From positions 330,001 to 362,000 of the forward strand of contig NC_017080.1 in the NCBI RefSeq assembly GCF_000284115.1: 32,000 nucleotides of DNA, read 5' to 3'. The notes under the pieces were generated by a model, which was not told the origin of the DNA, searched no databases, and worked only from the letters and a program-made list of their open reading frames with translations. How positions within the stretch are numbered: the stretch's first letter is position 1; each line of letters begins with the position of its first letter. Source of the stretch: Phycisphaera mikurensis NBRC 102666. GTDB taxonomy: Bacteria; Planctomycetota; Phycisphaerae; Phycisphaerales; Phycisphaeraceae. Positions 6,701-30,065 of the stretch are shown here, in pieces. The position numbers and the translations under genes are program-made.

Positions 6701-7332
6701 AGCTGCACCAGCAGCCAGGCCGAGTCGCGGCAGCTGCCGCTGGCGGCCGCGATCGTCTCCTCGGGGCTCTGGATGCCGGCCTCGAAACGCAGGCGGTAGC
6801 CCAGCCGCTCCTGCACCCGCCGGTTGACCGAGGTGACCGCGTCGATCGTCCGCGGCTCTTCACCGCCGGTTGGCGCGACCAGGCCGCGCACCTCCCGCAG
6901 CATCGCGTCGAAGCCGCTCCCGCACGCCGGGGCCCCCGCCCGCTCCAGGTACGGGGCCAGCTGCCGCGCGAGGTCCTCCCCGTAGGCGATCGGGAAGGTC
7001 TCCGCCTCGGCGTCGAGGAAGAAGTCGAACGGGTTGATCGGCGAGAGGTCGCACCGCAGGCTCACCTCCACCGCGAAGCGAGTGACCGCCTCGGGCACCA
7101 CCACGCGGGCGAGCCAGTTCGCCTGCGGGTCCTGCTGCCAGTTCACGAACGGCTCGACGCGGCGCACCCCGCCGGCGGGCGTCGCGTGCTCCAGCGTCAG
7201 CTTCATCGCGTAGCCCGAGACCGGCGTCCGGGCGTGCGGGGCGGGGCGCAGGCGGATGACCTGCGGGGCGAGGTCCACCGGGCGGTCGTACGTGTACTCG
7301 GTGCGGTGAAGCACCGCGGCGCGGATGGACAA
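3763..7332 (-). CDS. Large transglutaminase-family protein (Bact_transglu_N + transglutaminase core + DUF2126-type C-terminal region)
   Basis: N-terminus reads [32 protein letters not shown]. Cys-His-Asp core: [43 protein letters not shown] long conserved C-terminal region follows. The maximal ORF reaches 7575, but the family-typical N-terminus begins at the TTG at 7332, so I use that start. Confidence 0.9.
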
Positions 7333-7408
7333 AAGAGCTTTCGGGTGGGCAGCGGAAGGACCGGCGGTTGTCAACCAGCGTAGAGGTGGCTCCGCCGTGC
7401 GATCGCTC

Positions 7409-7454
7409 CCGCGGACCGCCGGCTCCGACACCGCTTCGGGCGTTCCGTCCGCGG
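7409..7454. repeat. 46-bp palindromic intergenic element, copy B (one arm mismatch)
   Basis: CCGCGGACCG at 7409-7418 and CCGTCCGCGG at 7445-7454 with a 26-nt spacer. Lies between the B12-like gene and the transglutaminase gene. Confidence 0.75.
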
Positions 7455-7671
7455 TTCCCGCCGCCCGCGGGTTCCCCGCCGCCAAGGCCGGCCGAGCCGA
7501 CGCGCGGGCGTCGCCCGCCCCCGCACCGGGGCGGTGCGGGCTCACGCGCAGCAGCGAACCGGTGGGGCGACCCACCGGGCGTCCTCTGGGTCGGATCCGT
7601 CGACGGGATCCGGGGGATCCGCCGCAGCCGGAGACGCGCCAGCCTCCGCAAGGCGGAGCGCGGAGCGGCCT

Positions 7672-8376
7672 TCAGGCCGCCTTGCGTCGGCGTCGGCCCA
7701 CGGTCCGCTGGTCCCAGGTCATGCGCGTGTCGGGCTCCTCGTCGAGCACCTCGACGACGTGGGTCGGGTGGTCGGCCCAGAGGTCGGCGCCGATTTCCTC
7801 GGCGAGGCCCTCGGCCCGGCCGAAGACGCCGCCGCCCACGGTGACCTGCACCTGCTCGTTGAGCCCCATGTCGTGGAGGCGGTCGATGAGCTGGCGGGTG
7901 CGGGGCACGGTGGCGGGGACGGCGCCGAAGATCACGAGCCGGTCGACGACCAGCGTCCCGACGGCGGCGATGATCTCGTCGTTGGCCACGCCGCCGCCGG
8001 CGAAGTAGACCGTCCAGCCGTCCGCCTCGAGCAGGTCCGCGGTGAGCTGGCCCGCCAGCTCCTCGCTCTCCTCCTCGCCGCAGACCATCAGCAGCGTCTG
8101 GCCGCGGCGGGCTTTCTGCTCGTACTCCGGCTGGAGGCGGTCGGTGATCGACCGCATCAGCCGCGTCGCGAAGTGGTACGACAGATCGGAGAGCTGGTCG
8201 TTGCGGTGGGCCTTCTGGACCTGGTCGAGGGTCGGCCAGATCAGGTGGTTGGCGAGGGCTTCGGCGGTCGCCTTGCCGGATCGGCACTCGGCGAGGACCT
8301 CGCCGGCGGCCGCGCGGTCGCCGGAGATGAGGGCCGTGTAGAAACGTTCGAGCAGGGCGTTGGGCCGGCTGGCCAT
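7672..8376 (-). CDS. Stand-alone cobalamin(B12)-binding-domain-like protein (helical cap + Rossmann-like B12-binding fold) with a degenerate His-on motif
   Basis: Architecture is a helical bundle (IWPTLDQVQKAHRND) followed by TLLMVCGEEESEELAGQLTADLLEADGWTVYFAGGGV...VQVTVGGGVF. An alternative ATG lies at 8433. The ATG at 8376 has a GGAG upstream. Confidence 0.7.
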   Translation of the reverse strand: MASRPNALLERFYTALISGDRAAAGEVLAECRSGKATAEALANHLIWPTLDQVQKAHRNDQLSDLSYHFATRLMRSITDRLQPEYEQKARRGQTLLMVCGEEESEELAGQLTADLLEADGWTVYFAGGGVANDEIIAAVGTLVVDRLVIFGAVPATVPRTRQLIDRLHDMGLNEQVQVTVGGGVFGRAEGLAEEIGADLWADHPTHVVEVLDEEPDTRMTWDQRTVGRRRRKAA

Positions 8377-8617
8377 GATTCGGGGCTCCGGGATTGAGAA
8401 GGTCGGCCCGTTGGCCGGCGACACCCCTTTCATCGTGGGGCGTGCCCCGATCGGGACAGCACGCAGGTGAACGCCGTTATCAGGCGCACGCGGGAGCGGC
8501 CGGCGGCGTAGGAGGCCGCTGCCGGCGCGGCAAGCGTGCTTTTATCGGCGGGCTCGCCCGCGTACAACGGGGGCGGCCTCTCTCGCTCTCGTCCCCGCCT
8601 CCCTCTGGAGAAACGCT

Positions 8618-9523
8618 TTGCACCCTCGAACCTTCCCCCTGCTCCGCCGGCTGCTCCCCGCCGCGTCGCTGGCCCTGGCCGCGGTCACCTTCTCCCCGGG
8701 CTGCCAGACCAACCCCGCCACGGGCGAGCTCTACCTGACCGCGCTCAACCAGGAGAAGGCGGTGCAGATCGGCGAGGAGGCCGAGCCGCAGTTCCTCTCC
8801 GAGAACGGCGGCGTCATCCCCGACGCCGGCATCCGCGACTACGTCGCGTCGATCGGCAACCGGCTCGCGGCCAAGAGCGAGCTGCCCGACCTCCCCTGGG
8901 AGTTCCACGTGCTCGACTCGGTGCAGATCAACGCCTTCGCGCTGCCCGGCGGCAAGATCTTCATGAGCCGCGGGCTGCTCGAGCGGATGACCAACGAGGC
9001 CCAGCTCGCCGGCGTCCTCGGCCACGAGATCGGCCACGTCACCGCCGACCACGTCGGCCAGCGGATGGCGCAGGCCACGGCGGTGACGGCCGCCGGCGCG
9101 GTCTTGGGCGCCGCCGGCGCCGCCACCGACAAGGACTGGCTGAAGGTGCTCGGCGTCGGCACCGGCGTCGGCGGCGGGGTTTACCTCCTGAGGTTCTCCC
9201 GCGGCAACGAGACCGAGTCCGACCTGCTCGGCGTCCGCTACATGGACCGCCTGGGCTACAACCCCTGGGGCCAGGTGCAGGTGATGGAGATCCTCAAGGA
9301 GGCCTCCGGCGGCGGCAGCGGCAACCTCCTGGAGAGCTTCTTCGCCACGCACCCGCTGCCCCAGGACCGCATCGACGACCTCGAGGAGCTCATCCGCGAC
9401 AAGTACCCCGACGCGAAGCGAAGCGGCGACGGCTTCTTCCCGGAGCGCTTCGAGCAGAACGTGCTGCGGCCGCTGTCGAGGCTGCCGGCCCCCCGGCAGA
9501 CGACGCCGCCGGCGGCCGGTTGA
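8618..9523 (+). CDS. M48-family zinc metallopeptidase, lipoprotein (YcaL/LoiP-like)
   Basis: HExxH motif in VLGHEIGHVTADH, with a downstream Glu ligand in NETESDLLG. Lipobox LAAVTFSPGC. TTG start with a GGAG 8-10 nt upstream. Confidence 0.9.
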   Translation: MHPRTFPLLRRLLPAASLALAAVTFSPGCQTNPATGELYLTALNQEKAVQIGEEAEPQFLSENGGVIPDAGIRDYVASIGNRLAAKSELPDLPWEFHVLDSVQINAFALPGGKIFMSRGLLERMTNEAQLAGVLGHEIGHVTADHVGQRMAQATAVTAAGAVLGAAGAATDKDWLKVLGVGTGVGGGVYLLRFSRGNETESDLLGVRYMDRLGYNPWGQVQVMEILKEASGGGSGNLLESFFATHPLPQDRIDDLEELIRDKYPDAKRSGDGFFPERFEQNVLRPLSRLPAPRQTTPPAAG

Positions 9524-9582
9524 ACGCTGGCGCTGGCGCGGGGCGGGGCAGGAAAGGGTGCCGTGGCGGGGACGGGGCAGAT

Positions 9583-9628
9583 CCGCGGACCGTCGCGGTT
9601 TGGAGGCTCTCGCCCCTACGGTCCGCGG
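9583..9628. repeat. 46-bp palindromic intergenic element, copy C
   Basis: Perfect arms at 9583-9592 and 9619-9628 (11 bp if the T/A flanks are included) with a 26-nt spacer. Lies between the M48 peptidase stop and the ubiE start. Confidence 0.85.
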
Positions 9629-9629
9629 C

Positions 9630-10412
9630 TTGGATGCCGCCGCGAAGAAGAAGGTCTGGGGCCGCGACACGCTCGCCGGCGATCCGCACGCGCGGGGCGA
9701 CAAGGCCCGGCGCGTCCGAGCGATGTTCGCCTCGATCGCGGGCTCGTACGACCTCAACAACCGGCTGCACGCCTTCGGCATGGACCAGCGCTGGCGGCGG
9801 GTCGCGGTCGGCATGGCGGCGGTGACGCCCGGCGAGCGGGTCGTCGACGTCGCCTGCGGCACGGGCGACCTGGCGATCGCGCTGGCCCGCACGCTCCCGG
9901 CCGCCGCCGCCGACGGCGGCCCCTCCGTGATCGGCGTCGACTTCACCTTCGCGATGCTCCCGCTGGCGGAGGGCAAGTCCAGCGGCGACGCCGCGGCGGC
10001 CGCGTACGCGGCCGGCGACGCGTTGCGGCTGCCGCTGCCCGACGCCTGCTGCGAAGCGGTGACCATCGCCTTCGGGCTGCGCAACGTGGCCGATCCCTCC
10101 GCCGCCGTCGCCGAGTTCGCCCGGGTGCTCAAGCCCGGCGGCCGGCTGGTCGTCCTGGAGTTCGTCGAGCCCAGGAACCCGCTCATCCGCTGGGGCAACG
10201 CGGCGTACACCCGCGGGCTGATGCCGCTGACGGCGACGGCCCTCTCCGGAGACCGCAGCGGCGCGTACCGGTACCTGCCCAAGTCGGTCGCGACCTTCCT
10301 GGGCACGGCGGGGGTGGCGGCGCTGTACGAGCGGCACGGCTTCGGCGGGCACCGCAGCCGCGCGATGAACCTCGGCACGGTGGACTGCCACGCCGGGACG
10401 CTCGGCCGTTAG
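9630..10412 (+). CDS. ubiE: Demethylmenaquinone/ubiquinone C-methyltransferase
   Basis: MFASIAGSYDLNNRLHAFGMDQRWRR, SAM motif VVDVACGTGDLAIA, FGLRNV, RVLKPGGRLVVLEF. The maximal ORF starts at 9558 but would cover a palindromic intergenic element (9583-9628). The in-frame TTG at 9630 gives family-typical N-terminal spacing. Confidence 0.88.
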   Translation: MDAAAKKKVWGRDTLAGDPHARGDKARRVRAMFASIAGSYDLNNRLHAFGMDQRWRRVAVGMAAVTPGERVVDVACGTGDLAIALARTLPAAAADGGPSVIGVDFTFAMLPLAEGKSSGDAAAAAYAAGDALRLPLPDACCEAVTIAFGLRNVADPSAAVAEFARVLKPGGRLVVLEFVEPRNPLIRWGNAAYTRGLMPLTATALSGDRSGAYRYLPKSVATFLGTAGVAALYERHGFGGHRSRAMNLGTVDCHAGTLGR

Positions 10413-10743
10413 CAGGCCGCTTCGGGATCCCGCGTCAGGCGGTGCTGCCCGCCCGCAGCCCCGATGAGGTCGTGCAGCGGCCAGCGAGGCCCGGCGGTGG
10501 CGCCTCCCGCCGAGCGGAGCGCAGCGGAATGGAGCTGCGACCCCGCATCCGCGGCGCGTCGCAACGCCGCTTGCGCGGGCGGCCGCGTCCCCGCCCGCAC
10601 CCGCGGTGTGAACGCCGTCCGCGGCTCTAAACCCCTTCTCGCGTCCGCCCGATGCCCCCCGCAGCCGGACCCCGCGGCGTCCGCTTGCGTGGCCCGCCGG
10701 CGGATCGTTGGTTGGAACCCCGTGTCCCCCGCGGAAGCACCCC

Positions 10744-11346
10744 ATGCACGAGCACGAGCACGCACCCGAAGCCACGCCCCGCCGACGCCGGCACCCGCGG
10801 CCGTCCCGGCGTCGCGGCTTCACGCTGATCGAGGCCTCCCTCACCACCGTCATCGTCGGCACCGGCGTGCTCGCGATGATCGAGGCCCAGCAGGCGTACC
10901 ACCGCAAGAACCAGATCGCGACCCGCGCCGGCACCGGCCAGCTGCTGGCCAACGAGGTCCGCGAGCTGATGCACGGGCTCCCGCACCACGCCCAGCTGCT
11001 CAACGGCGCCGAGACCCTCAACCTCGGCCCGGAGCTCGGGGAGACCTCGCCGATCGACTTCGACGACCTCGACGACTTCATCTCGGTCGCCGGCGGCGGG
11101 TTCCACCCGCCGATCAACGCCATGGGTCAGACGCTGCCCGGCGACGACATGCTCCGCTGGCGGCAGGTCGTGACGCTCGGCGGCGTGTTCCCGAGCCTGA
11201 TCGACAGCAACGCCACCTTCGCCCTGGGCACCACCGAGATGATCCGCGTGGTCGTCTCCGCCCAATACGACACCGACCCCGACCCCACCGCCGAGTCCTG
11301 GGTGCAGGTGGCCGATCTCGCCTGGGTCGTCCCGCCGACCCGCTGA
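10744..11346 (+). CDS. Prepilin-type N-terminal cleavage/methylation-domain protein (minor pseudopilin, GspI/GspH-like)
   Basis: Basic leader ending RRRG, then FTLIEASLTTVIVGTGVLAMIE (G|FTLIE with Glu+5). An alternative TTG start lies at 10708. Third-position GC is very high. Confidence 0.85.
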   Translation: MHEHEHAPEATPRRRRHPRPSRRRGFTLIEASLTTVIVGTGVLAMIEAQQAYHRKNQIATRAGTGQLLANEVRELMHGLPHHAQLLNGAETLNLGPELGETSPIDFDDLDDFISVAGGGFHPPINAMGQTLPGDDMLRWRQVVTLGGVFPSLIDSNATFALGTTEMIRVVVSAQYDTDPDPTAESWVQVADLAWVVPPTR

Positions 11347-11396
11347 GCGGCCGAGCCGCCCGCCGCTCCCGCCCCGTCCCTTCCGGACCGCCCGCC

Positions 11397-14036
11397 ATGC
11401 GCCCCGCCCCGCACGCCCCGACCCCCGCCCGGTTCCCGCTCCCGCGTCGCCCCCGCTCCGGCTCCCGCCAGCGGGGCGTCGCCGCGATCATCGCGATGAT
11501 GTTCCTGGTGATCTTCGGATCGCTGGCCGCGGCGATGGCCATCGTCTCCCAAGGCGGCCTGCGCAGCGCCGAGTCGCACCTCAAGGTCAACCGCTCGCAC
11601 GCCGCGGCCGAGACGGGCCTGGACCTGCTGGAGTGGCGGATGGAGCAGGCGATGGCGGGGCGGACCAACGACCCGGCGCTGGACGCCTCGCTCTCGTTGA
11701 CGCCGGTGCGTTCGGACCAGGGCGTGGTGACGCCGGCGCTGGCGGTCGGCTTCTGGAACCAGACCGCCTGGAACCTCAACCAGATCCTGGGGGCGACCGG
11801 CTCGCTGGGCGTGAACCACAACCAGCGCGGCCTCCGGCTCGAGCCGCAGGCCTCCGGCAGCCTCTCGCAGAAGCTCAGCCTCGGGCCCATCCGCGTCGGC
11901 CCCGGCCAGCCCGACTTCGAGGCCGTCCTCCAGCCGCACCCGCTCCCCGGCGAGGACTACACCTCCGCCCGCTACGACCGGCTTCCCTACGGCCCGCCGG
12001 CGGGCAAGCCCGACGGGACGGCCCTGGAGAAGGCCGCGTGGGCGCGCGACGTGAAGCTCAAGCGGGAGGCGGGCATCGACTTCGTCGTCGGCAGCCCCAC
12101 CGAGGCCGGGCGGGTGGCCGGCTTCGAGTATCGCCCGCTGGATGCGCGCTTCATCCGGGTCAGCGTCACCGGCACCGACCGGGGCACCTTCAACGCCTCC
12201 GCCGACGGGGCGGCCCGCGCGGTCTCCCGCGAGGGCGCCGCGCACAGCGTCATCCGCCGGACGGTCGAGCAGGACTACCTGCTGACCAAGACGATCCCCT
12301 TCGCGCTGCTCGCCCGGAGCCGCGTGATGATCGGCCGCAACGTCACGATCGACGGCCCGGTCAACTCCCGCTTCAGCGACGTCAAGCACAAGCACGGCCA
12401 CCCGATCCAGATGGAGTCGGACTTCTTCAACCTGCTCGGCACCGGCTCCAACGGGCTCAACAACGACCTCAACGGCTTCGTCAGCACGCTGTCGAGCAAC
12501 GGCAGCGGCGTCGATCTCGACGGCGACAACCGCATCAACCTGGCGAGCCCCTCGGAGACCGCCGGCCTGATCGATCCGCGCGACAGCGACTTCGACGGCG
12601 ACGGCTACCTCAGCGAGTTCGACTGGTTCGTCAAGGCCTTCGACGGCAGGAGCGGCGGCGTCGTGGACGGCCGCATCAGCCCCGACGAGCTGGGCATCGA
12701 CGCGTCGAGCCCCGACCAGACGCTGCAGCAGCTCTTCACGCTGATCGACGCCGACGCCTCCCCCAACGTCACCTACGGGCCCGACGGCCAGCCGATCGGC
12801 GACGGCTTCCTCGACGCCGACGACGAGTACGCCAAGGTCCGCGGCCAGCTGATCATGGAGGCCACGCTGGAGGACTGGGAGGAGGTCGCCGCGGAGAGCG
12901 GCAACTACCGCGACTACCTCAAGGGTCCGGTCACGGCCGACTTCGGCAAGCGGCCGCTGGTCGCGGGCGAGGAGGCCACCGACGACGCGTACGACTTCTC
13001 GGCCAACAGCTTCGACATGACGGCCTACAGCGACCGCGCGACCAACACGCTCAACCCCGCGAGCGCCGGCAGCGCCACCGCCAACGACACGAGCGAGCCC
13101 GTGGAGTTCAACGGGCGCAACACCGACGCCGACGGCAACCCCATCTTCGAGAAGGTGCCGTACCAGTCCGAGTACGCGTACGACCACTTCGATCGGCCGG
13201 TGTACCGCAACCTCCGCTTCAGCGACATCCGGATCCCGCCGGGCACCAACGCGCTCTTCGAGAACTGCCGCTTCATCGGCGTCACGTACATCGAGACCGC
13301 CGCGAACAACATGGACCCGAACTTCAACTACGCCGGCATCCAGGACAAGGACGGCGTGCCGACCTACTGGGACCGGCCCGTGGAGATCGACGGCGTCAAG
13401 TACGGCGGCCTCCGCCCGACCGACCCCGGCTACGACCCCGCGGACAACGCCACCGGCACGAAGATGCTGTCCAACAACATCCGCTTCCACAACTGCACCT
13501 TCGAGGGACCGGTCACCGGCGGGCCCGTCGGCGGCGGACGCTTCCCGGCCAACTTCCAGTTCACGCACACCCGCAACAAGGTGACCTTCACGGGCCGGAC
13601 GCGCTGGGAGCACGACGCGAACAACGGAAAATCCGACGCCGACAAAGCCTTCTACCGGCGCTCGTCGATCCTGATGCCGCACTTCTCGGTGGAGCTCGGC
13701 TCCTTCAAGGATCCCGCGAGCCTCACCGAGGAGGTCGACCTGGAGGGCACCGTGGTCGCCGGCATCATCGACATCCGCGGCCAGGCCGACGTGCACGGGA
13801 CCGTGGTCACGACCTTCGAGCCCGAGAGCGACACCGGCCCGGTGATCGGCAACACCAGCCCGAACTTCAACACGACCCTGGGCTACTTCGACAACGCCGA
13901 CGGCGACCGCGAGGGCGAGCGCCCCGACAACGGCGTGGGCCGCATCCGCCTGCGCTACAACGCGGTCGCCACGCTGCCCGACGGGATCGAGAGCCCGATC
14001 ACGCTGGTCCCGCTGCACCGGACGTACGCCGAGTGA
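11397..14036 (+). CDS. Giant (879 aa) PilX_N/GspK-like pseudopilin-family protein with EF-hand/dockerin-like Ca-binding loops and a beta-helix-like C-terminal region
   Basis: In-frame ATG at 11397 inside track ORF 10464-14036. N-terminus SRQRGVAAIIAMMFLVIFGSLAAAMAIV has no Glu+5, as in GspK/PilX. AAAETGLDLL follows. Ca-loop-like DLDGDNRINL and DSDFDGDGYLSEFD. Repeats NLRFSDIRIPPGTNALFENCRFIGV and NIRFHNCTFEGPV. Confidence 0.85.
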   Translation: MRPAPHAPTPARFPLPRRPRSGSRQRGVAAIIAMMFLVIFGSLAAAMAIVSQGGLRSAESHLKVNRSHAAAETGLDLLEWRMEQAMAGRTNDPALDASLSLTPVRSDQGVVTPALAVGFWNQTAWNLNQILGATGSLGVNHNQRGLRLEPQASGSLSQKLSLGPIRVGPGQPDFEAVLQPHPLPGEDYTSARYDRLPYGPPAGKPDGTALEKAAWARDVKLKREAGIDFVVGSPTEAGRVAGFEYRPLDARFIRVSVTGTDRGTFNASADGAARAVSREGAAHSVIRRTVEQDYLLTKTIPFALLARSRVMIGRNVTIDGPVNSRFSDVKHKHGHPIQMESDFFNLLGTGSNGLNNDLNGFVSTLSSNGSGVDLDGDNRINLASPSETAGLIDPRDSDFDGDGYLSEFDWFVKAFDGRSGGVVDGRISPDELGIDASSPDQTLQQLFTLIDADASPNVTYGPDGQPIGDGFLDADDEYAKVRGQLIMEATLEDWEEVAAESGNYRDYLKGPVTADFGKRPLVAGEEATDDAYDFSANSFDMTAYSDRATNTLNPASAGSATANDTSEPVEFNGRNTDADGNPIFEKVPYQSEYAYDHFDRPVYRNLRFSDIRIPPGTNALFENCRFIGVTYIETAANNMDPNFNYAGIQDKDGVPTYWDRPVEIDGVKYGGLRPTDPGYDPADNATGTKMLSNNIRFHNCTFEGPVTGGPVGGGRFPANFQFTHTRNKVTFTGRTRWEHDANNGKSDADKAFYRRSSILMPHFSVELGSFKDPASLTEEVDLEGTVVAGIIDIRGQADVHGTVVTTFEPESDTGPVIGNTSPNFNTTLGYFDNADGDREGERPDNGVGRIRLRYNAVATLPDGIESPITLVPLHRTYAE

Positions 14037-14137
14037 GCCGGCCCCGCCCCCTGGCGGCCTCACCCGGGGCCCCCGGACACCCGATGAGGCCGCTGCCGGC
14101 CACCGCCACCGCCGCGCCCGCCGCTCTTGACGTTGCC

Positions 14138-14821
14138 ATGGCCTCTTCCTCCCCGATTCCGCGAACCCGCCCACGCCCGCGCACCCGCCGCGGGCCGCGG
14201 CGGCAGGCCGGCCTCTCGCTCGCCGAGATGCTCATCTCGCTGGCCATCTCCGCGGCGCTGCTGACGGCCGTCGCCCTGGCGATGGACGCCAGCTTCACCG
14301 CCTACGCCAGCGCGGCGGAGTCGACCTCGGCGCAGAGCTCCACCCGCCTGGTGGTGCACCGGATCCAGGCGATGATCCGCGGAGGCGTGGCGCAGGGCCC
14401 GCTCACCCCCGACGACCACCTCGCCTGGAAGAACACGATCCGGCTCAAGAGCGGGGGGACGCTCGCCCTGCCGGAGCCCGACTTCAGCAACAACCCGGTC
14501 ACCAGCGACTACCTGCTGCTCGATGACCGCGACGGCCGGCTGATCGCCCTGGACTTCGACCCCATCACCGCGACGGTCTTCCTGAGCACGCCCGAACCGG
14601 ACGGTCGCTACGAGCGGCGGCCCCTGCTGCAGGGCGTCACGGCCTGCACCTTCAGCTTGTTCCGACGGCGGGACCGGCAGAGCGATTACCAGAACGTGCT
14701 GGAGCGCGGCGGCATCGACCTCACGGTCCAGCCCGGCGCCGACTCGACGCTGGGCACCGAAGCCGGGCAGTCCCCCCCGATCCGCTTGATCGCTTCCACC
14801 TCGCCCCGCCGCCTGCGCTGA
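14138..14821 (+). CDS. Prepilin-type N-terminal-domain protein (minor pseudopilin, GspJ/PulJ-like)
   Basis: In-frame ATG at 14138 inside track ORF 11633-14821. Basic leader ending RRQAG, then LSLAEMLISLAISAALLTAVALAM (Glu+5 present), then a STRLVVHRIQAMIR helix as in GspJ-type proteins. Confidence 0.8.
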   Translation: MASSSPIPRTRPRPRTRRGPRRQAGLSLAEMLISLAISAALLTAVALAMDASFTAYASAAESTSAQSSTRLVVHRIQAMIRGGVAQGPLTPDDHLAWKNTIRLKSGGTLALPEPDFSNNPVTSDYLLLDDRDGRLIALDFDPITATVFLSTPEPDGRYERRPLLQGVTACTFSLFRRRDRQSDYQNVLERGGIDLTVQPGADSTLGTEAGQSPPIRLIASTSPRRLR

Positions 14822-14961
14822 ACGCGGGCACCACGACCCCCGGGGAAAAACCCGCGCGGTTCGCTTGCCCCGCTTCCCCCTGGATCGTCCCCTTGCCCGC
14901 ACGCTCTCGCCGAGAGCGGCTTTCGCGGCAGAGCCGCACGATCCGCTTCGAAGGACACCCG

Positions 14962-15843
14962 ATGCACAGCTCCATCCCTCTCACCCGCACCTCCCTCGCC
15001 CGCCGCGTGCGGCCCGCGGCGGCCGCCGTCGCGGCTTCGCTGGCCCTCACGGGGCTGGCCGCCGCCCCCGCGGCCGCGGCCCCCGGCGTCGCCGACGTCC
15101 TCGACGCGGTGGACGCCGCGCAGGAGAGCATCCGCCTGGAGGGCACGCTCCGCGACTTCACCATCGACCACCCCGACATGGAGTACGGCAAGAAGAGCTT
15201 CGGCCTCCGCAAGGGCATGGTCGAGGAGCGGCTCGGCGCCGACGGCCGGCCGGTCCTCAGCGAGAAGTACGCGAAGAATCCCGGCAAGGCGATGATCCAG
15301 AGCGAGTCGACCTTCAACCAGTGGTTCCGCGACGTGCCGGGCGTGAACCTCACCGAGGTCGTCGAGCTGACCCTCCAGCCGCACCCCGCCAAGCCCGGCG
15401 TCATGTACTTCGCCCGCGAGGCCCAGAGCTCCGGCGACAAGCGGTTCTTCTTCCCCGCCGATGGCCGCGGCTTCAACGACATGCGGAACGCGGGCAAGGG
15501 CCTGCACAACTACTTCTTCACCTTCGAGCTCGAGACCGAGTTCACCTACGACGATCCCAGCGGGCGCGACCACGCGCTGGAGTTCGCCTTCAGCGGCGAC
15601 GACGACGTCTGGGTCTTCATCAACGACCGCCTCGCGGTCGACCTCGGCGGCGTGCACGGGCAGCAGAGCGCCAAGGTCAACCTGGACCGCAACGCCGAGA
15701 AACTCGGCCTCGAGCCCGGCGAGACCTACCCGCTCCGCCTCTTCTTCGCCGAACGGCACACGACGCAGAGCAACTTCCGCATCGAGACCACGCTGAAGCT
15801 CAAGGGCCTGCCGCCCTCGAACATCACCGCGAACTACGACTGA
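14962..15843 (+). CDS. Secreted fibro-slime-domain (PA14-like) protein
   Basis: Signal peptide AAAAVAASLALTGLAAAPAAA. RDFTIDHPDMEY. Then FFFPADGRGFND...HNYFFTFELETEFTY...FAFSGDDDVWVFINDRLAVDLGGVHGQQSAKVNLD...LFFAERHTTQSNFRIETT, which matches the fibro-slime signature (TIGR02148-type). ATG at 14962 with an AAGGA upstream; the maximal ORF starts at 14893. Confidence 0.85.
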   Translation: MHSSIPLTRTSLARRVRPAAAAVAASLALTGLAAAPAAAAPGVADVLDAVDAAQESIRLEGTLRDFTIDHPDMEYGKKSFGLRKGMVEERLGADGRPVLSEKYAKNPGKAMIQSESTFNQWFRDVPGVNLTEVVELTLQPHPAKPGVMYFAREAQSSGDKRFFFPADGRGFNDMRNAGKGLHNYFFTFELETEFTYDDPSGRDHALEFAFSGDDDVWVFINDRLAVDLGGVHGQQSAKVNLDRNAEKLGLEPGETYPLRLFFAERHTTQSNFRIETTLKLKGLPPSNITANYD

Positions 15844-15952
15844 TCCGCATCCTCGAGGACCAGGACGCGTCGAGCACCCACCGCCGGGGGAACCCGTGGG
15901 GTGGGGTGTGCAGCGTCGTGCACGCTTGTCCATCCCGCAAGCGGCGTGGCAG

Positions 15953-15979
15953 CCGACGCAGAGGAGCGTCGGTTGTTCC
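15953..15979 (+). terminator. Possible weak intrinsic terminator downstream of the fibro-slime gene
   Basis: Hairpin CCGACGC-aggaga-GCGTCGG (15953-15972) followed by TTGTT. The T tract is poor and the site lies about 110 nt after the stop. Confidence 0.25.
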
Positions 15980-16169
15980 CGAACGCGGAGAGCGGCCGCG
16001 ATCCGACCGCCGCGACTCAACCGCCGCGTCGGACCGGACCGATGCAACGAGGCAGAGCCTATCCCAACAACCGGCCCCGCGCCGGACTGCGGGAGGGAGA
16101 CCACGGGCCGCGGCGTGGGGCCGATCGCTCCCGCCGCGGCCCGCTGCTGCGCGGGCGCCGCGGCCGGGC

Positions 16170-17510
16170 TCAGCCCGATTGGGCCGAGCGGATCAGCAGC
16201 GTGTTGTTCTGGCCGCCGAAGCCGAAGCTGTTGGAGAGGGCGGCCGTGACCGGTTTCCGGCGCGCTTCATTCGGCACGTAATCGAGGTCGCACTCGGGGC
16301 CGGGCGTGGTGAGGTTGGCCGTGGGGGGGAGGACGCCGTCGCGGATGGCGAGCACGCAGGCGATGGCCTGCACGGCGCCGGCGGCGGCGATCAGGTGGCC
16401 GAGCATCGACTTGATCGAGCTCACGGGCGGGACGGCGGCGAGGTCGGCTCCGTCCGCTCCGGCGAAGACGCTCTTGATCGCGCGGGTCTCGATCGAGTCG
16501 TTCTCCTTCGTGCCGGTGCCGTGGGCGGCGATCCAGTCGACCCCCGCGGGCTCCAGCCCCGCCATTTCCAGCGCCTGCCGCATGGCGGCCGCGGCGCCGC
16601 GGCCCTCGGGGTGGATGTCGGTGATGCGATACGCGTCGGCGGTGGCTCCGTAGCCCCCGATCTCCGCAAGGATCTCCGCTTCCCGCGCCTCCGCGTGGCT
16701 GCGCCGCTCGAGCACGAGGATCCCGGCGCCCTCGCCCATCACGAAGCCGTCGCGGTCGGCGGAGAAGGGCCGGCTGGCGGTCTCGGGCGAGTCGTTGCGG
16801 TTCGAGAGGGCGGTCAACCGGTTGAAGCCGGTGACGCCGAAGGGGTGGATCATCGTGTGCGCCCCGCCGGAGAGCATCACGTCGGCCTCGCCGCGGGCGA
16901 GCACGGCGCAGGCCTCGCCGATCGCCTGCGTGCTCGCGGCGCAGGCGGTGAGGCAGTTGCTCGCCGGCCCCATCGCGCCAAACTCCAGCGCCAGGTGCGT
17001 GAGCGGCATGTTGGGCTCCTGCTCCACCTCGCGGTCGGCGTCGAACTGGCGGAGCGCCTCCGCCGCCCACGCTCTCGCGTCGACCGCGCCCGCGTCGGCG
17101 TCCCAGGCCGCGAGCGTCGTCGAGACGTAGTGCTCCAGGTCGATGGTGCCCTCGCCGGCGCCGAGATACAAACCCAGCCGCTCGCGGTCGAGCCCGTCGA
17201 ACCCGTCGAGCCCCGACTGCTCCCACGCCCGGGACGCCGCGCCGAGCGCAAAGCGGGTGTGCCGGCCCGCGGTCTCGTGCAGCTTGGGGTGCTTCAGCCC
17301 CGAGGGGGACCACCCGGGATCCACCTCCGCGGCGAACGTCGTCGGGAAGGTGCTGGCGTCGAAGCCGCGGATCGCGGCGGCCCCCGACTGCGCGTTCAGC
17401 ATCCGCTTCCACACCCCGTCGAGCGTGTCGCCCAGCGGCGTCACCCAGCCGCAACCGGTGATGACGATCGGGTCCGTCGAGCTTGTTCTTGCGTCAGCGG
17501 GGGTGGTCAT
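16170..17510 (-). CDS. Beta-ketoacyl-ACP synthase, FabF/KAS-II family, catalytically canonical
   Basis: 446 aa from ATG at 17510. Active-site Cys in NCLTACAAST, His in AAHGTGTKEND, His in SIKSMLGHLIAAAG. C-terminal NSFGFGGQNNTLLI. Confidence 0.93.
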   Translation of the reverse strand: MTTPADARTSSTDPIVITGCGWVTPLGDTLDGVWKRMLNAQSGAAAIRGFDASTFPTTFAAEVDPGWSPSGLKHPKLHETAGRHTRFALGAASRAWEQSGLDGFDGLDRERLGLYLGAGEGTIDLEHYVSTTLAAWDADAGAVDARAWAAEALRQFDADREVEQEPNMPLTHLALEFGAMGPASNCLTACAASTQAIGEACAVLARGEADVMLSGGAHTMIHPFGVTGFNRLTALSNRNDSPETASRPFSADRDGFVMGEGAGILVLERRSHAEAREAEILAEIGGYGATADAYRITDIHPEGRGAAAAMRQALEMAGLEPAGVDWIAAHGTGTKENDSIETRAIKSVFAGADGADLAAVPPVSSIKSMLGHLIAAAGAVQAIACVLAIRDGVLPPTANLTTPGPECDLDYVPNEARRKPVTAALSNSFGFGGQNNTLLIRSAQSG

Positions 17511-18808
17511 CACGCTTTCTCCAGCACGAGGGCCGTGTTCTGCCCGCCGACCGCGGTGGACGCAACCAGGATGGTCTCCAGCTTCTCGGCGTCCTCGCTC
17601 TTCGCCGCGCAGCCAGCCCGCGGTTCCTTCCGGTTCACGATCGGCGGCAGCTCGCCCCGCGACAGCGCCTCCGCCGCGACCGCGACCTCGAAGCCGCCCG
17701 CCCCCGCGGCGAGGTTCCCGGTGGAGGCCTTGAGCCCGAGCACCGGCACCCGGTCGAGCCCGTCGCCGAACACCGCCCGCAGGGCGGAGGCCTCCGCCGC
17801 GTCCCACAGCGGGTGGCCGATCCCGAAGGGGATCACCGCGTCCACGTCCTCGGGGCTCTTCCCCGCGTCGGCCAGCGCCCGCCGCATCGACGCCGCGATC
17901 GCCCGGCCCTCCGGGTCCGGCTGCCGATTCAGGCTCTCGGGGTGGAACGTCTGCGAGGACGCGAAGCCGGACAGCCGCGCCCGCGGGGCCGCCCCGCCGC
18001 GGCGCTCCAGGTTCTCCGCCGTCTCGATCACCAGGATCCCGCCGCCCTCGGCGACCGCCGTGCCTTCGGCGTTCTCGTCGAAGGGTCGCACGCTCCCGCC
18101 GGTCGGCGCCAGCCGCCCCCCGAGCACCTGCCGGTGGAAGGCCATCGGGTTCAGCCGGCTCTCGGCCCCGCCGCAGAAGCACGCGTCGGCCGCGCCGCGC
18201 TGGATCACCCGCAGGCTCTCGCCGATCGACAGCCCGCCGCTGGCCTCGCCGCAGGTGATCGTGTTGCTGGGCCCGCGGGCCTCGTGGATGATCGTCACGT
18301 GGCAGGCGAGCATGTTCGGCAGGTACTTGAGCAGCCACAGCGGCGTGAGCTGCTGCATCCCCTCGGCGCCCCACTTCTTCAGGCTGAAGCTCCCGTCGTC
18401 GTCGGTCGACCCCGCCAGCGCCGCCCCCAGCTCGTTCTCGTCGGCCGCGATCAGCCCCGCCCCGATGTGGCAGCCGAAGCGCTCCGCCGCGACACCGGGT
18501 TCGCCCCCCTCCGCCGTTCCCGGCGTCACCAGCCCCGCGTCCTTCGCCGCGAGCTTCGCCGCCACCACCGCCAGCTCGATGTCCCGGGCCATCACCTTGA
18601 CCGCCTTGCGGTAGCTCTTGGGCACCGCCTTCTTGACGTCGAGATCGGTGACTTCGCCCGCGAGGTCGTGGCCCGTGCCCGACGCGTCGAAAGCCGACAC
18701 CGGCCCGAGCCCGATCTTCCCCGCGGCGAGCGCCGACCAAACCTCGTCGATGCCCTGCCCCAGCGGCCCGACGGGTCCAAGCCCGGTGATGTAGACGCGC
18801 AAAGCCAT
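17510..18808 (-). CDS. Ketosynthase-like paralog lacking the catalytic triad (chain-length-factor-like partner)
   Basis: 432 aa from ATG at 18808. Aligns without gaps to FabF around all three motifs: RGPSNTITCGEASGGLSIG (Glu at the nucleophile position, a Cys 2 residues earlier), VIPFGIGHPLWDAAE (Phe at the first His), LKASTGNLAAGAGG (Asn at the second His). Its TGA overlaps the ATG of the downstream KS (TGATG at 17508-17512). Confidence 0.88.
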   Translation of the reverse strand: MALRVYITGLGPVGPLGQGIDEVWSALAAGKIGLGPVSAFDASGTGHDLAGEVTDLDVKKAVPKSYRKAVKVMARDIELAVVAAKLAAKDAGLVTPGTAEGGEPGVAAERFGCHIGAGLIAADENELGAALAGSTDDDGSFSLKKWGAEGMQQLTPLWLLKYLPNMLACHVTIIHEARGPSNTITCGEASGGLSIGESLRVIQRGAADACFCGGAESRLNPMAFHRQVLGGRLAPTGGSVRPFDENAEGTAVAEGGGILVIETAENLERRGGAAPRARLSGFASSQTFHPESLNRQPDPEGRAIAASMRRALADAGKSPEDVDAVIPFGIGHPLWDAAEASALRAVFGDGLDRVPVLGLKASTGNLAAGAGGFEVAVAAEALSRGELPPIVNRKEPRAGCAAKSEDAEKLETILVASTAVGGQNTALVLEKA

Positions 18809-18921: not shown

Positions 18922-19824
18922 TCAGTTCCGGCGGCCGGTGAGAATCAGCAGGGCTCCGGTGGCGAGCAGCAGGGCCGAGGCGGGCTCGGGGACCACCTCG
19001 AAGTCCACGAGGTCGAGGTCGTTGATCGTGTTTGTGAACACGGTGTCCCCGTTGTTCACGCCGCGCACGTCGTCGACGCCGTGGGTGAAGCGGATCCCGC
19101 CGATGAGCGTCGTCGCCGGCGCGACGCCGGTCGCGGCCGGGGTGTCGGGCTCGGACCCGGTGATCGCGTCCATGCTCCCGTTGGAGCCCGGCGCCGTGAG
19201 GTCGGTCCCCACCGCCGTGACGCTGCCGAGGCCGTCGGCGACGTAGTTGCCGGTGGACGCCGAGCCCCCGACCGGCGTGTGCGTCGCGTAGGACCCGATC
19301 GCGGGCGTCGGGCTGAAGGGGTTCCCGCCGGCGTCGAGGAACTCCATCACGGAGTGCTCCCACACCACGCCGGCGCTGTTGCCGCTGGACCAGCTGAGGT
19401 CGGCGACGTCGCTCGCCTCCACGAGAAGCGTGAGGAAGTCGATCTGGATCGTCTGCGTCACGCGGTGCCCGCCGTTGTTGGCGAGGACCCCGCCGCCGGA
19501 GACGAAGCTCGGATCGATCGTCGAGACCAGCCCGGTCCCGCTGGTCCCCGTCGTCGCGACCCAGGACACGTTGTTGCCGTCGTCGGCGGTGAGCCCGGTG
19601 GCGGTGACCGACACCGCGATGTCCGCCACGCCGTCCGCGACGGCCAAGCCGGTCGCCGCGTCGAAGACGTCGTAGAGGCCCGGCCCGTTGTAGTTGCCGC
19701 CGACCTTGAGGAAGTCGTCGACGAGATCGAACGCGGGAACGACCGCCGCGGAGGCCGCCCCGCCCGCCGCCACCGCCAGCAGCGCCGCCGACGCCGAGCC
19801 CGCGAACGTGTGCCTGGGTCTCAT
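18922..19824 (-). CDS. PEP-CTERM sorting-domain secreted protein
   Basis: N-terminal signal peptide SASAALLAVAAGGAASAA. C-terminal VPEPASALLLATGALLILTGRRN (PEP motif + TM + basic tail). Strong AAGGAGG Shine-Dalgarno 6 nt upstream of the ATG at 19824. Confidence 0.9.
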   Translation of the reverse strand: MRPRHTFAGSASAALLAVAAGGAASAAVVPAFDLVDDFLKVGGNYNGPGLYDVFDAATGLAVADGVADIAVSVTATGLTADDGNNVSWVATTGTSGTGLVSTIDPSFVSGGGVLANNGGHRVTQTIQIDFLTLLVEASDVADLSWSSGNSAGVVWEHSVMEFLDAGGNPFSPTPAIGSYATHTPVGGSASTGNYVADGLGSVTAVGTDLTAPGSNGSMDAITGSEPDTPAATGVAPATTLIGGIRFTHGVDDVRGVNNGDTVFTNTINDLDLVDFEVVPEPASALLLATGALLILTGRRN

Positions 19825-27342: not shown

Positions 27343-28872
<1,530 letters not shown>

Positions 28873-29634: not shown

Positions 29635-29650
29635 GTCCGGCCGCGGCTCT

Positions 29651-30037: not shown

Positions 30038-30065
30038 TCCCGCTCCGGGATCCCGACGCCCCCGC

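What the first reader, a model, noticed from the sequence alone, without database searches (positions are those of the whole stretch)
10708..15843. Orphan pseudopilus 'tip-complex-like' operon (I/H-like, hypertrophied K-like, J-like) followed by a secreted fibro-slime/PA14-like protein
Three consecutive same-strand genes have pilin-type N-termini.
- 10744-11346: RRRG|FTLIE with Glu+5.
- 11397-14036: QRG|VAAIIAMMFLVIF without Glu+5, as is typical of GspK/PilX.
- 14138-14821: QAG|LSLAE with Glu+5 and a GspJ-like following helix.

This composition mirrors the GspI-J-K / PilV-W-X tip complexes that cap pseudopili. The K-like member, however, is 879 aa, about 2.5 times the usual size. No major pilin, ATPase, platform protein, secretin or prepilin peptidase is in the window. 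A signal-peptide-bearing fibro-slime (PA14-like, putatively glycan-binding) protein starts 140 nt downstream on the same strand. Together these look like a self-contained adhesive or capture tip module (tip complex plus lectin-like partner or cargo) that would have to plug into a pilus or T2SS machine encoded elsewhere. I do not recognise this specific four-gene arrangement as a described system.
Basis: partly seen in the sequence, partly recalled or inferred. Interest (0 to 1): 0.7.

Follow-up and report, generated by a model that had tools for sequence, protein, structure and literature searches.

The report
Pilus tip module of Phycisphaera
Three adjacent genes of the marine planctomycete Phycisphaera mikurensis encode the priming and tip subunits of a type IV pilus, including a giant ComZ-like cap protein; this is a lineage-specific version of a known design and has only been separated from its motor genes.

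Summary
Genes at 10744-11346 (A) and 14138-14821 (C) have canonical prepilin N-termini with Glu+5. The gene at 11397-14036 (B, 879 aa) has a GspK/PilX-type N-terminus without Glu+5. A secreted fibro-slime/PA14 protein (D) follows.

The window is from Phycisphaera mikurensis. A-B-C is conserved in at least 260 Phycisphaerae species genomes. In 63 of 66 loci with enough upstream sequence it lies directly downstream of a PilT-family ATPase gene and a PilC/GspF-type platform gene. P. mikurensis keeps that pair at another locus, so "orphan" describes a lineage-specific split.

In deeper relatives the cluster reads pilM-pilN-pilO-pilB-pilT-pilC-A-B-C, which is a type IVa pilus operon.

The AF2 model of B (pLDDT 82) best matches Thermus ComZ, a GspK-like tip pilin with an ice-binding-protein-like beta-solenoid. 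The model of C (pLDDT 86) best matches the XcpV-XcpW minor pseudopilin complex. The long form of B also carries a roughly 250-aa insertion with dockerin/EF-hand-like Ca2+ loops.

The PA14 gene is adjacent in only 36 of 61 loci, so its link to the trio is plausible but not shown.

Verdict: a new member of the known class of beta-solenoid-capped minor-pilin tip complexes, not a new system. Interest is moderate.

The parts
10744..11346 (+). Gene A: PilV/GspI-like minor pilin (200 aa). Prepilin cleavage site G25|F26, Glu+5 at residue 30 (nt 10807-10833 encode RRRGFTLIE). Conserved acidic motif DFDDLDDF at 11056-11079.
   Evidence: N_methyl scores 19.8 bits. TIGR02523 PilV scores 24 bits, N-terminal third only and below the cut-off. 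The gene lies immediately upstream of B in 78 related loci. Its fold was not modelled.
11397..14036 (+). Gene B: giant ComZ/PilX/GspK-type tip pilin (879 aa). Predicted cleavage after G27 (QRG|VAAII, nt 11469-11492) and no Glu+5.
- Residues about 28-300: long N-terminal helix followed by helices and strands.
- From about residue 304 (SRVMIGRNV, 12318-12344): strand-rich region of the model, read as the start of the beta-solenoid on the strength of the ComZ and ice-binding-protein fold matches.
- About 600-805: second strand-rich region with NALFENCRF (13248-13274) and NIRFHNCTFEG (13476-13508).
- Conserved C-terminal strand, residues 869-878.
   Evidence: more than 260 full-length homologs, nearly invariant N-terminus. 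(AF2 pLDDT 81.9, pTM 0.82). (best PDB match ComZ 6qvi_B, E 7.6e-4, followed by ice-binding proteins). (719 cluster representatives)..
12375..13166 (+). Insertion within B (about residues 327-590) specific to the long Phycisphaerae-type form. It carries dockerin/EF-hand-like Ca2+-binding loops: DLDGDNRIN (12513-12539), DSDFDGDGYL (12582-12611), and a degenerate third loop VDGRISPDEL (12663-12692).
   Evidence: hhalign of long against short family, probability 100, E 2e-58, with the centre unaligned; invariant D373, D377, N378, R379, E387, D398, D402. EF-hand_5 in 6 and Dockerin_1 in 2 of 36 members; weak dockerin and calmodulin matches; some homologs are named EF-hand domain-containing protein.
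14138..14821 (+). Gene C: PilW/GspJ-like minor pilin (227 aa). Cleavage site G25|L26 and Glu+5 (QAGLSLAE, nt 14204-14227).
   Evidence: N_methyl 25.6 bits, TIGR02532 16.7 bits, both above cut-off. AF2 pLDDT 86.2; top PDB match is chain 5bw0_C of the XcpV-XcpW complex, probability 0.99, E 7.4e-3. Immediately downstream of B in 76 loci. It overlaps B's stop codon in L005 and L169.
14962..15843 (+). Gene D: secreted fibro-slime/PA14 protein (293 aa) with a signal-peptide-like N-terminus. It is a frequent but not obligate neighbour, and its functional link to A-B-C is inferred only.
   Evidence: TIGR02148 106.7 bits, PA14 42.1 bits; a homolog lies within 3.2 kb downstream on the same strand in 36 of 61 loci; absent from the distant clusters. 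The C-D gap (140 nt here, 295-367 nt in L001 and L006) is larger than the gaps within A-B-C.

Best explanation
A, B and C are the minor pilins that prime and cap a type IVa-like pilus in Phycisphaerae.

Proposed mechanism. A prepilin peptidase encoded elsewhere cleaves all three after the conserved Gly. The PilV/GspI-like A, the PilW/GspJ-like C and the PilX/GspK/ComZ-like B assemble on the PilC platform into a complex that nucleates the filament and stays at its tip. B lacks Glu+5, as expected for the topmost subunit, which has no subunit above it to pair with. It cannot fit in the filament body because it carries a large beta-solenoid of roughly 550 residues. This solenoid projects along the fibre axis and would serve as a plug, adhesin or receptor. 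A dockerin/EF-hand-like Ca2+ module is inserted in the Phycisphaerae form. The highly conserved PilT-family ATPase retracts the fibre and pulls whatever B has bound towards the cell.

Genome context. In most Phycisphaerae the genes form one same-strand cluster, pilT-pilC-A-B-C, often preceded by PilZ-domain genes. In P. mikurensis a rearrangement moved pilT-pilC to another locus.

The PA14 protein. The downstream fibro-slime/PA14 protein is most likely a secreted glycan-binding protein that cooperates in surface or polysaccharide attachment, or it is merely a syntenic neighbour.

Shown versus inferred.
- Shown: pilin signatures, synteny, fold similarities, the split locus.
- Inferred: assembly into a trimer, tip location, the ligand, Ca2+ binding, any role of D.
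For: - Pilin N-termini with and without Glu+5. They are nearly invariant across relatives.
- pilT-like and pilC-like genes lie directly upstream in 63 of 66 loci. A and C flank B in essentially all loci.
- The ATPase passes the PilT/PilU model: 436.7 bits in L001 and 449.8 bits in P. mikurensis L087, against a cut-off of 319.1. The platform is a T2SSF protein.
- The P. mikurensis pilT-pilC pair sits at a second locus.
- In distant relatives A', B' and C' lie inside pilM-pilN-pilO-pilB(MshEN)-pilT-pilC. L086 has pilB directly upstream.
- B model: pLDDT 81.9. Best PDB match is ComZ (E 7.6e-4), followed by ice-binding proteins. These are the same structural neighbours the ComZ authors report (PMC6561018).
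- C model: pLDDT 86.2. Best match is a chain of the XcpV-XcpW complex, probability 0.99.
- B-C or A-B stop/start overlaps or gaps of 7 nt or less in relatives suggest co-translation.
- Cyanobacterial PilX proteins with the same solenoid have been proposed as tip plugs (bioRxiv 10.64898/2026.02.12.705559).
- Fibro-slime proteins and type IV pilins are paired in the Fibrobacter cellulose-adhesion model (PMC4668043).
Against: - There is no sequence-level homology to ComZ, GspK or PilX. PilX_N and T2SSK are not hit in any of 36 long-form members.
- The Foldseek TM-scores to ComZ are low (0.18 and 0.27), so the fold match is modest.
- A's fold was not modelled. Its PilV assignment rests on 24 bits over the N-terminal helix.
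- No GspH/FimU-like fourth minor pilin and no major pilin is present in the cluster.
- PilB, PilMNO, PilQ and PilD could not be located in Phycisphaeraceae. None lies within +-10 kb, and genome-wide scans were not possible.
- No trimer model, no expression data, and no promoter or terminator calls.
- D is absent from 41% of loci and from all distant clusters.
Confidence: 0.7

Rival explanations
1. The trio is the tip of a T2SS-type pseudopilus. It never leaves the periplasm and acts as a piston that secretes proteins across the outer membrane. The adjacent fibro-slime/PA14 protein would be a dedicated substrate.
For: - The platform protein scores best against GspF (348.6 bits, against 306 and 291 for the PilC models).
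- C's best structural match is a T2SS pseudopilin complex.
- B's N-terminus weakly matches GspK.
- D has a signal peptide and follows the trio in 59% of loci.
Against: - The adjacent ATPase is a PilT/PilU-family member, which T2SSs do not use.
- Distant relatives have PilM/PilN/PilO and a PilB with an MshEN domain rather than GspL/GspM.
- No GspC or GspD, no GspG-like major pseudopilin and no GspH was seen.
- The GspF score is below its cut-off of 424.
- D is missing from 41% of loci.
Confidence: 0.1
2. The module is a competence-pilus tip. B is a ComZ-like DNA receptor that, together with A (equivalent to PilA2), captures extracellular DNA for uptake by PilT-driven retraction.
For: - ComZ is the best and only significant structural match to B.
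- ComZ binds DNA and PilA2 and is argued to sit at the tip (PMC6561018).
- The tight link with pilT fits a retraction-dependent function.
Against: - No sequence similarity to ComZ, so its DNA-binding lysines cannot be mapped.
- B carries Ca2+-binding dockerin/EF-hand-like loops absent from ComZ.
- No comEA, comEC or dprA genes are nearby.
- The frequent PA14 lectin-like neighbour points to glycans instead.
- Natural competence has not been reported for this group in the papers searched.
Confidence: 0.12
3. Phycisphaeraceae run a reduced filament machine without PilB, in which the PilT-family ATPase works with PilC under PilZ and c-di-GMP control. This ATPase would drive both extension and retraction of a short fibre made of A and/or C and capped by B.
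For: - Within +-10 kb of 66 Phycisphaerae loci there is no pilB or pilMNO ortholog, whereas distant relatives have them in the same operon.
- PilZ-domain genes replace pilB upstream.
- The PilT-like protein is unusually conserved (median identity 83%, against 40% for B).
- No separate major pilin gene is present in the cluster.
Against: - Genes encoded elsewhere could not be surveyed.
- Several loci carry a second PilT paralog and a 539-550-aa PilB/GspE-like ATPase 1-7 kb away.
- Dispersed T4aP genes are common.
Confidence: 0.08

Closest known systems
Thermus thermophilus ComZ with PilA1-PilA3 (competence pilus tip; PDB 6qvi; PMC6561018)
   Same: - A large pilin-like protein that escapes pilin HMMs.
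- Pilin-like domain, described as GspK-like for ComZ by its authors, plus an ice-binding-protein-like beta-solenoid.
- Encoded among PilV/PilW-type minor pilins.
- Argued to be sterically restricted to the tip.
- Best PDB match of the B model.
   Different: - No detectable sequence similarity; TM-scores are low.
- B is about 340 aa longer and has a dockerin/EF-hand-like insertion.
- The set has three members (no PilA1/GspH-like one), gene order V-X-W, and is linked to pilT-pilC rather than to the major pilin gene.
- The ligand is unknown. DNA binding was not tested.
Cyanobacterial PilX family with beta-solenoid, including the PilX-EPS/HpsA subfamily (bioRxiv 10.64898/2026.02.12.705559)
   Same: - A PilX-type minor pilin interrupted by a bulky triangular solenoid resembling ice-binding proteins.
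- Co-occurs with PilV-type pilins.
- Proposed to replace PilY1 as the tip plug.
- An expanded subfamily with extra domains is linked to polysaccharide.
   Different: - Different phylum.
- Homology not tested here, because no cyanobacterial sequence was compared.
- The Phycisphaerae form has Ca2+-loop insertions and a PA14/fibro-slime neighbour rather than an hps glycosyltransferase locus.
T2SS GspI-GspJ-GspK (XcpV-XcpW-XcpX) pseudopilus tip complex
   Same: - Three-member composition.
- The K-type member lacks Glu+5 and is enlarged by an inserted domain.
- C's model matches the XcpV-XcpW complex.
   Different: - In GspK the insertion is an alpha-domain at a different position (PMC6561018).
- Here the machine context is PilT, PilC and PilMNO, not GspE, GspL and GspM.
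- The GspI, GspJ and GspK HMMs are far below their cut-offs.
T4aP minor pilins plus PilY1 priming complex (Pseudomonas, Myxococcus; PMC7541494)
   Same: - A priming and tip complex with a large non-fibre-compatible adhesin.
- PilY1 has an EF-hand-like Ca2+ site that tunes extension and retraction (established knowledge), paralleled by the Ca2+ loops in B.
   Different: - PilY1 is a separate non-pilin protein with a beta-propeller.
- Here the bulky domain is fused into the PilX-like pilin, and no PilY1 homolog was seen.
Fibrobacter succinogenes fibro-slime proteins with type IV pilins (cellulose-adhesion model; PMC4668043)
   Same: - Secreted proteins with a fibro-slime domain are proposed to act with pilins in polysaccharide attachment.
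- D passes the same TIGR02148 model.
   Different: - The Fibrobacter fibro-slime protein first characterised is much larger (180 kDa, PMC4668043).
- No gene linkage between fibro-slime and pilin genes is reported in the passages of that paper I read.
- Here D is small (293 aa) and gene-linked in only 59% of loci.

Membership tests
Type IV pilin / prepilin (class III signal peptide; PF07963, TIGR02532) | Short basic leader, Gly at -1, hydrophobic +1, Glu at +5, followed by a hydrophobic helix of about 20 residues | tested here: met
   A has RRRG|FTLIE and C has QAG|LSLAE. Both are conserved in about 80 loci. C passes both HMM cut-offs (25.6 against 21.2; 16.7 against 16.3). A falls just below them (19.8 against 21.2; 15.3 against 16.3).
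Type IV pilin / prepilin (class III signal peptide; PF07963, TIGR02532) | Cleavage and N-methylation by a prepilin peptidase (PilD) | not testable with these tools
   No PilD gene is in the window or in any fetched locus. Genome-wide search was not possible.
GspK / PilX-type tip minor pilin | Pilin-like N-terminal helix lacking Glu+5 | tested here: met
   B has QRG|VAAIIAMMFLVIF, with Ile at +5. The consensus across 36 homologs is RxRG|xAAxLAMMFLVIFGSLAAAMAIVSQG.
GspK / PilX-type tip minor pilin | Match to the family HMMs (PF14341 PilX_N, PF03934 T2SSK, NF037980 GspK) | tested here: not met
   - No Pfam hit for B or for any of 36 long-form homologs.
- NF037980 scores 16.3 bits against a cut-off of 130.
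- The short relative in L089 reaches PilX_N at 23 bits, under the 25.5 cut-off.
ComZ-like / beta-solenoid PilX tip pilins | Pilin-like domain combined with a large ice-binding-protein-like beta-solenoid in one polypeptide | tested here: met
   AF2 model with pLDDT 81.9 and pTM 0.82. Foldseek top hit is ComZ 6qvi_B at E 7.6e-4, probability 0.82. The next hits are ice-binding proteins 5uyt, 3uyv and 5b5h and a pectate lyase.
ComZ-like / beta-solenoid PilX tip pilins | [quoted passage not shown] | tested here: inconclusive
   A conserved terminal strand (residues 869-878) follows the strand-rich C-terminal region in the secondary-structure string. The model coordinates could not be inspected, so its pairing with the pilin sheet is unverified.
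ComZ-like / beta-solenoid PilX tip pilins | Sequence homology to ComZ | tested here: not met
   A profile of 36 homologs searched against all PDB sequences at E<=10 gives no ComZ or GspK hit. Identity in the Foldseek alignment is 8%.
ComZ-like / beta-solenoid PilX tip pilins | Binds a PilV-type partner (PilA2) and DNA | not testable with these tools
   This needs multimer modelling or biochemistry.
GspJ / PilW-type minor pilin (gene C) | GspJ-like fold | tested here: met
   Model with pLDDT 86.2. The top Foldseek PDB hit is chain 5bw0_C of the XcpV-XcpW complex (159 aa): probability 0.99, E 7.4e-3, TM 0.33 and 0.44. The next hit is at E 0.23. That this chain is XcpW (GspJ) is inferred from its length.
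GspJ / PilW-type minor pilin (gene C) | Match to TIGR01711 gspJ or equivalent HMM | tested here: not met
   The L001 ortholog scores 18.1 bits against a cut-off of 64.85. The window protein hits only PRK10557 at 17.3 against 120.
GspI / PilV-type minor pilin (gene A) | Match to TIGR02523 PilV, or a GspI-like fold | tested here: inconclusive
   TIGR02523 scores 24 bits against a cut-off of 52.2, over residues 24-78 only, and likewise for the L001 ortholog. A PDB profile search hits only N-terminal helices.
Type IVa pilus machine (genomic context) | PilT/PilU-family ATPase and PilC-type platform associated with the pilin genes | tested here: met
   - Directly upstream in 63 of 66 related loci.
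- TIGR01420 scores 436.7 and 449.8 bits against a cut-off of 319.1.
- T2SSF Pfam domains are present.
- In P. mikurensis the pair is at a second locus, L087.
Type IVa pilus machine (genomic context) | PilB extension ATPase and the PilM/N/O alignment complex | tested here: inconclusive
   They are present in the same operon in distant relatives (L089: PF11104, PF05137, PF04350, MshEN+T2SSE; L086 pilB). No ortholog lies within +-10 kb in Phycisphaeraceae. Only a divergent 539-550-aa T2SSE is nearby in some loci.
Type IVa pilus machine (genomic context) | Secretin PilQ, prepilin peptidase PilD, major pilin PilA | not tested
   None was seen in any fetched locus.
Fibro-slime / PA14 proteins (gene D) | TIGR02148 fibro-slime domain and PA14 fold, with a secretion signal | tested here: met
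   TIGR02148 scores 106.7 against 45. PF07691 scores 42.1 against 24. The N-terminus MHSSIPLTRTSLARRVRPAAAAVAASLALTGLAAAPAAAAP is signal-peptide-like by inspection.

The most novel reading that the evidence does not exclude
Phycisphaeraceae may have reduced an ancestral pilMNO-pilB-pilT-pilC-minor-pilin operon to a compact PilB-less machine: PilZ/c-di-GMP input, a PilT-family motor, PilC and three pilins. Its fibre would be capped by a Ca2+-gated, dockerin-bearing beta-solenoid. That cap would recruit the secreted PA14/fibro-slime lectin, or bind algal polysaccharide directly, and reel it to the cell. This would be a pilus-based glycan-capture device in planctomycetes.
Probability: 0.08. Interest if true: 0.75.

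Novelty: new member of a known kind. Interest (0 to 1): 0.38.

Why it matters
- It assigns a role to a protein family annotated as hypothetical, with no Pfam model. The profile search gave 719 cluster representatives, and at least 260 Phycisphaerae species genomes encode it.
- It extends the ComZ/PilX design, in which a beta-solenoid is built into the tip pilin, from Deinococcus-Thermus and cyanobacteria to the PVC superphylum. That suggests the design is a widespread alternative to PilY1.
- It identifies a well-conserved pilT-pilC-minor-pilin cluster as a handle for studying pili in planctomycetes, where attachment to algal surfaces and uptake of polysaccharides are open questions.
- The Ca2+-loop insertion and the recurrent fibro-slime/PA14 neighbour give concrete, testable hypotheses about the ligand.
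- It also shows that an apparently orphan module in one genome can be a simple operon split.

Tried and rejected
- Pfam and NCBIfam on B: no family. Only weak GspK N-terminal and pentapeptide noise.
- PDB sequence-profile searches with A, B and C alignments: only N-terminal helix matches or weak EF-hand/dockerin matches.
- Promoter and terminator scan of 10300-16300: nothing, which is uninformative at 73% GC.
- Rfam on the whole window: nothing.
- Literature searches for pili in Phycisphaera, Poriferisphaera and planctomycetes found no description of this cluster.
- Intein idea for the 986-aa SufB ORF: rejected. The SufB match starts at residue 482, so the long ORF is a high-GC read-through upstream of the real start.
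- Pectate-lyase-like enzymatic role for the solenoid: only a weak hit (E 0.12, probability 0.04), so not pursued.
- Most short B-like relatives in metagenomes are stand-alone or tandem, without pilin or ATPase neighbours. The family is therefore not always operon-linked, and this remains unexplained.

Full report
**Observation**

The window has about 73% G+C. It is identical to the Phycisphaera mikurensis chromosome over gene B: P0001 is 100% identical and sits on a 3.80-Mb contig. Third-position GC of 0.94-0.98 supports four consecutive plus-strand genes.

| Gene | Coordinates | Size | N-terminus or domain |
|---|---|---|---|
| A | 10744-11346 | 200 aa | SRRRG\|FTLIE..., Glu+5 |
| B | 11397-14036 | 879 aa | SRQRG\|VAAIIAMMFLVIF..., no Glu+5 |
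| C | 14138-14821 | 227 aa | RRQAG\|LSLAE..., Glu+5 |
| D | 14962-15843 | 293 aa | signal peptide; fibro-slime 106.7 bits, PA14 42.1 bits |

A six-frame motif scan finds no other pilin N-terminus in the 32 kb. The remaining large ORFs are housekeeping genes: SpoU methylase, a pyridine nucleotide-disulphide oxidoreductase, DUF2126/transglutaminase, a B12-binding protein, M48 peptidase, UbiE, two ketoacyl synthases, a PEP-CTERM protein, a Na+/H+ exchanger, SufBCD and bactofilin.

**Distribution and synteny**

B has more than 260 full-length homologs of 700-900 aa at about 40% identity. Those that carry a taxon label are labelled Phycisphaerae or Planctomycetota, and most are annotated as hypothetical.

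A pattern scan of species-representative genomes found 260 genomes encoding a relative. The best 80 loci are all labelled Phycisphaerae, Phycisphaerales or Planctomycetota, apart from the most distant one (L086), which is labelled Planctomycetaceae. They include the cultured strains ZRK32 and Poriferisphaera sp. WC338.

I mapped neighbours by tblastn:
- A lies immediately upstream of B in 78 loci, and C immediately downstream in 76.
- A PilT-like ATPase gene and a PilC-like platform gene lie directly upstream, on the same strand, in 63 of the 66 loci that have at least 3.6 kb of upstream sequence.
- The exceptions are L004 (the closest relative of P. mikurensis, with B 64% identical), L044, and L072 (platform hit incomplete).

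Gene calls show short gaps or overlaps inside the cluster. In L005, A-B is 7 nt and B-C is -1 nt. In L169, B-C is -4 nt.

The ATPase passes the PilT/PilU subfamily model (436.7 bits, cut-off 319.1). The platform scores highest against GspF and next against PilC, all below the equivalog cut-offs. PilZ-domain genes often precede the pair.

Median identities to the reference copies show that the motor and platform are far more constrained than the pilins:

| Protein | Median identity |
|---|---|
| PilT-like | 83% |
| PilC-like | 78% |
| A | 46% |
| B | 40% |
| C | 42.5% |

**The "orphan" status**

Searching with the platform protein of L005 returned a P. mikurensis ortholog (P0282, 78% identity). 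Its neighbourhood (L087) shows a 351-aa PilT-family gene (449.8 bits) followed by the platform gene and then ybaB, with no pilin genes. The five-gene cluster was therefore split in the Phycisphaera lineage.

**Deeper relatives**

A profile of 36 B homologs retrieves 719 cluster representatives. These include a shorter form of about 520-570 aa. Profile-profile comparison of the long and short forms gives probability 100 and E 2e-58, with both ends aligned. The central region, about residues 327-590 of the window protein, is unaligned, meaning it is an insertion in the long form.

In five metagenome loci (L089, L090, L103, L104, L146) the short form sits in this cluster: pilM (PF11104), pilN (PF05137), pilO (PF04350), a hypothetical gene, pilB (MshEN+T2SSE), a pilT-like gene (67% identical to the Phycisphaerae one), a pilC-like gene, A' (G|FTLAE), B', and C' (G|LSIIE). 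The most distant genome locus, L086, also has pilB directly upstream of pilT. This places the trio in a type IVa pilus assembly operon rather than a T2SS.

Many other short-form genes are stand-alone or tandem, without pilus neighbours. I cannot explain these.

**Structure**

The AF2 model of B has mean pLDDT 81.9 and pTM 0.82. It has a 60-residue N-terminal helix, helices and strands up to about residue 300, a helical middle, and a long C-terminal strand-rich region ending in a conserved strand.

Foldseek against the PDB gives one significant hit: Thermus thermophilus ComZ (6qvi_B, E 7.6e-4, probability 0.82). Ice-binding proteins and a pectate lyase follow. The ComZ paper reports that ComZ is a GspK-like pilin domain with a beta-solenoid resembling ice-binding proteins. 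The solenoid is inserted before the last strand, too bulky for the fibre body, binds PilA2 and DNA, and is proposed to sit at the tip (PMC6561018). A 2026 preprint finds the same solenoid in all cyanobacterial PilX proteins, including the HpsA-like PilX-EPS subfamily, and proposes a PilY1-like plug role.

The similarity of B to ComZ is structural only. TM-scores are low (0.18 and 0.27), identity is 8%, and no sequence method links them.

The model of C (pLDDT 86.2) has a single convincing PDB match: a 159-aa chain of the XcpV-XcpW minor pseudopilin complex (probability 0.99, E 7.4e-3). By its length this chain should be XcpW (GspJ).

Its N-terminus gives a weak PilV match of 24 bits.

**The insertion in B**

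The long-form-specific segment contains invariant acidic loops: DLDGDNRIN at 373-381, DSDFDGDGYL at 396-405, and a third, EF-hand-like loop that is degenerate in P. mikurensis. A minority of homologs hit EF-hand or Dockerin_1 Pfam models. The PDB profile search gives weak dockerin and calmodulin alignments over this region. Some database entries are named EF-hand domain-containing protein. Ca2+ binding is therefore a reasonable inference, not a demonstration. From established knowledge, PilY1 uses an EF-hand-like Ca2+ site to tune pilus dynamics, which offers a functional analogy.

**The PA14/fibro-slime gene**

A homolog of D lies within 3.2 kb downstream on the same strand in 36 of 61 loci, sometimes in two copies. 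The pair of ketoacyl-synthase genes on the opposite strand is retained in 30 of 61 loci, and 25 loci have both. D is absent from the distant clusters. The C-D gap is consistently larger than the gaps within A-B-C.

Part of the association may therefore be inherited gene order. The literature does offer a functional precedent: in Fibrobacter succinogenes, fibro-slime proteins and type IV pilins are both implicated in attachment to cellulose (PMC4668043). I regard a cooperative adhesive role as plausible and unproven.

**Conclusion**

The best-supported reading is a minor-pilin priming and tip complex of a type IVa-like pilus. It consists of a PilV-like A, a ComZ/PilX/GspK-like B and a PilW/GspJ-like C, and has been separated from its pilT-pilC partners in P. 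mikurensis.

It is a new member of a known kind: tip pilins with a built-in beta-solenoid. Its notable features are the Ca2+-loop insertion, the three-member set, the tight pilT-pilC linkage, PilZ genes in place of pilB, and a recurrent PA14 neighbour.

Three questions remain open:
- Do Phycisphaeraceae retain PilB, PilMNOPQ, PilD and a major pilin?
- What does B bind?
- Is D a partner of the trio?

Noticed in passing
L006:19295-22592 and L169:553-5097: A conserved unit lies 1-7 kb from the pilT-pilC-A-B-C cluster in several Phycisphaerae genomes. It reads hisF-like gene, second PilT/PilU paralog (381-384 aa, TIGR01420 374.5 bits), divergent 539-550-aa T2SSE ATPase (about 155 bits to both GspE and PilB, far below cut-offs), then a 564-aa membrane protein with a weak CvpA-like N-terminus and no other family. 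It may be another part of the same machine or a separate one.
   Followed up: partly
L118, L122, L123, L141, L147, L158 (for example L158:6471-7862 and 7950-9656): Many short (about 460-570 aa) relatives of B in metagenome contigs are stand-alone or in tandem pairs among housekeeping genes. They have no pilin, ATPase or platform gene within 8 kb, so the family is not always operon-linked.
   Followed up: partly
L087:3279-5171 and 13915-16410: The relocated pilT-pilC pair of P. mikurensis is flanked by two GGDEF/EAL proteins (GAF-GGDEF-EAL and CHASE-GGDEF-EAL). In other Phycisphaerae, PilZ-domain genes precede the pair. Both observations hint at c-di-GMP control.
   Followed up: no
window 16170-18808 (- strand): Two adjacent beta-ketoacyl synthase genes (445 and 432 aa) converge on the pilin/PA14 block. 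The pair keeps this position in 30 of 61 related loci, so it belongs to an old syntenic neighbourhood.
   Followed up: partly
window 18922-19824 (- strand): A 300-aa secreted protein ends in a PEP-CTERM sorting signal (VPEPASALLLATGALLILTGRRN; TIGR02595 17.7 bits against a cut-off of 16). This implies an exosortase system in this organism.
   Followed up: no
window 27343-30303 (- strand): The SufB ORF is listed as 986 aa, but the SufB model matches only from residue 482. The N-terminal half is probably non-coding read-through typical of high-GC DNA, not an intein or an extra domain.
   Followed up: yes
window 3763-7575 (- strand): A very large (1270 aa) transglutaminase-like plus DUF2126 protein (Pfam: putative amidoligase enzyme; 1034 bits) lies next to a B12-binding-domain protein (7672-8433). 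It is unrelated to the finding.
   Followed up: no
window 14900-14935 (C-D intergenic): A short G+C-rich inverted repeat (GCTCTCGCCGAGAGC) lies between C and D, with no T-run. The terminator scan did not call it, so whether it separates transcription units is unknown.
   Followed up: no
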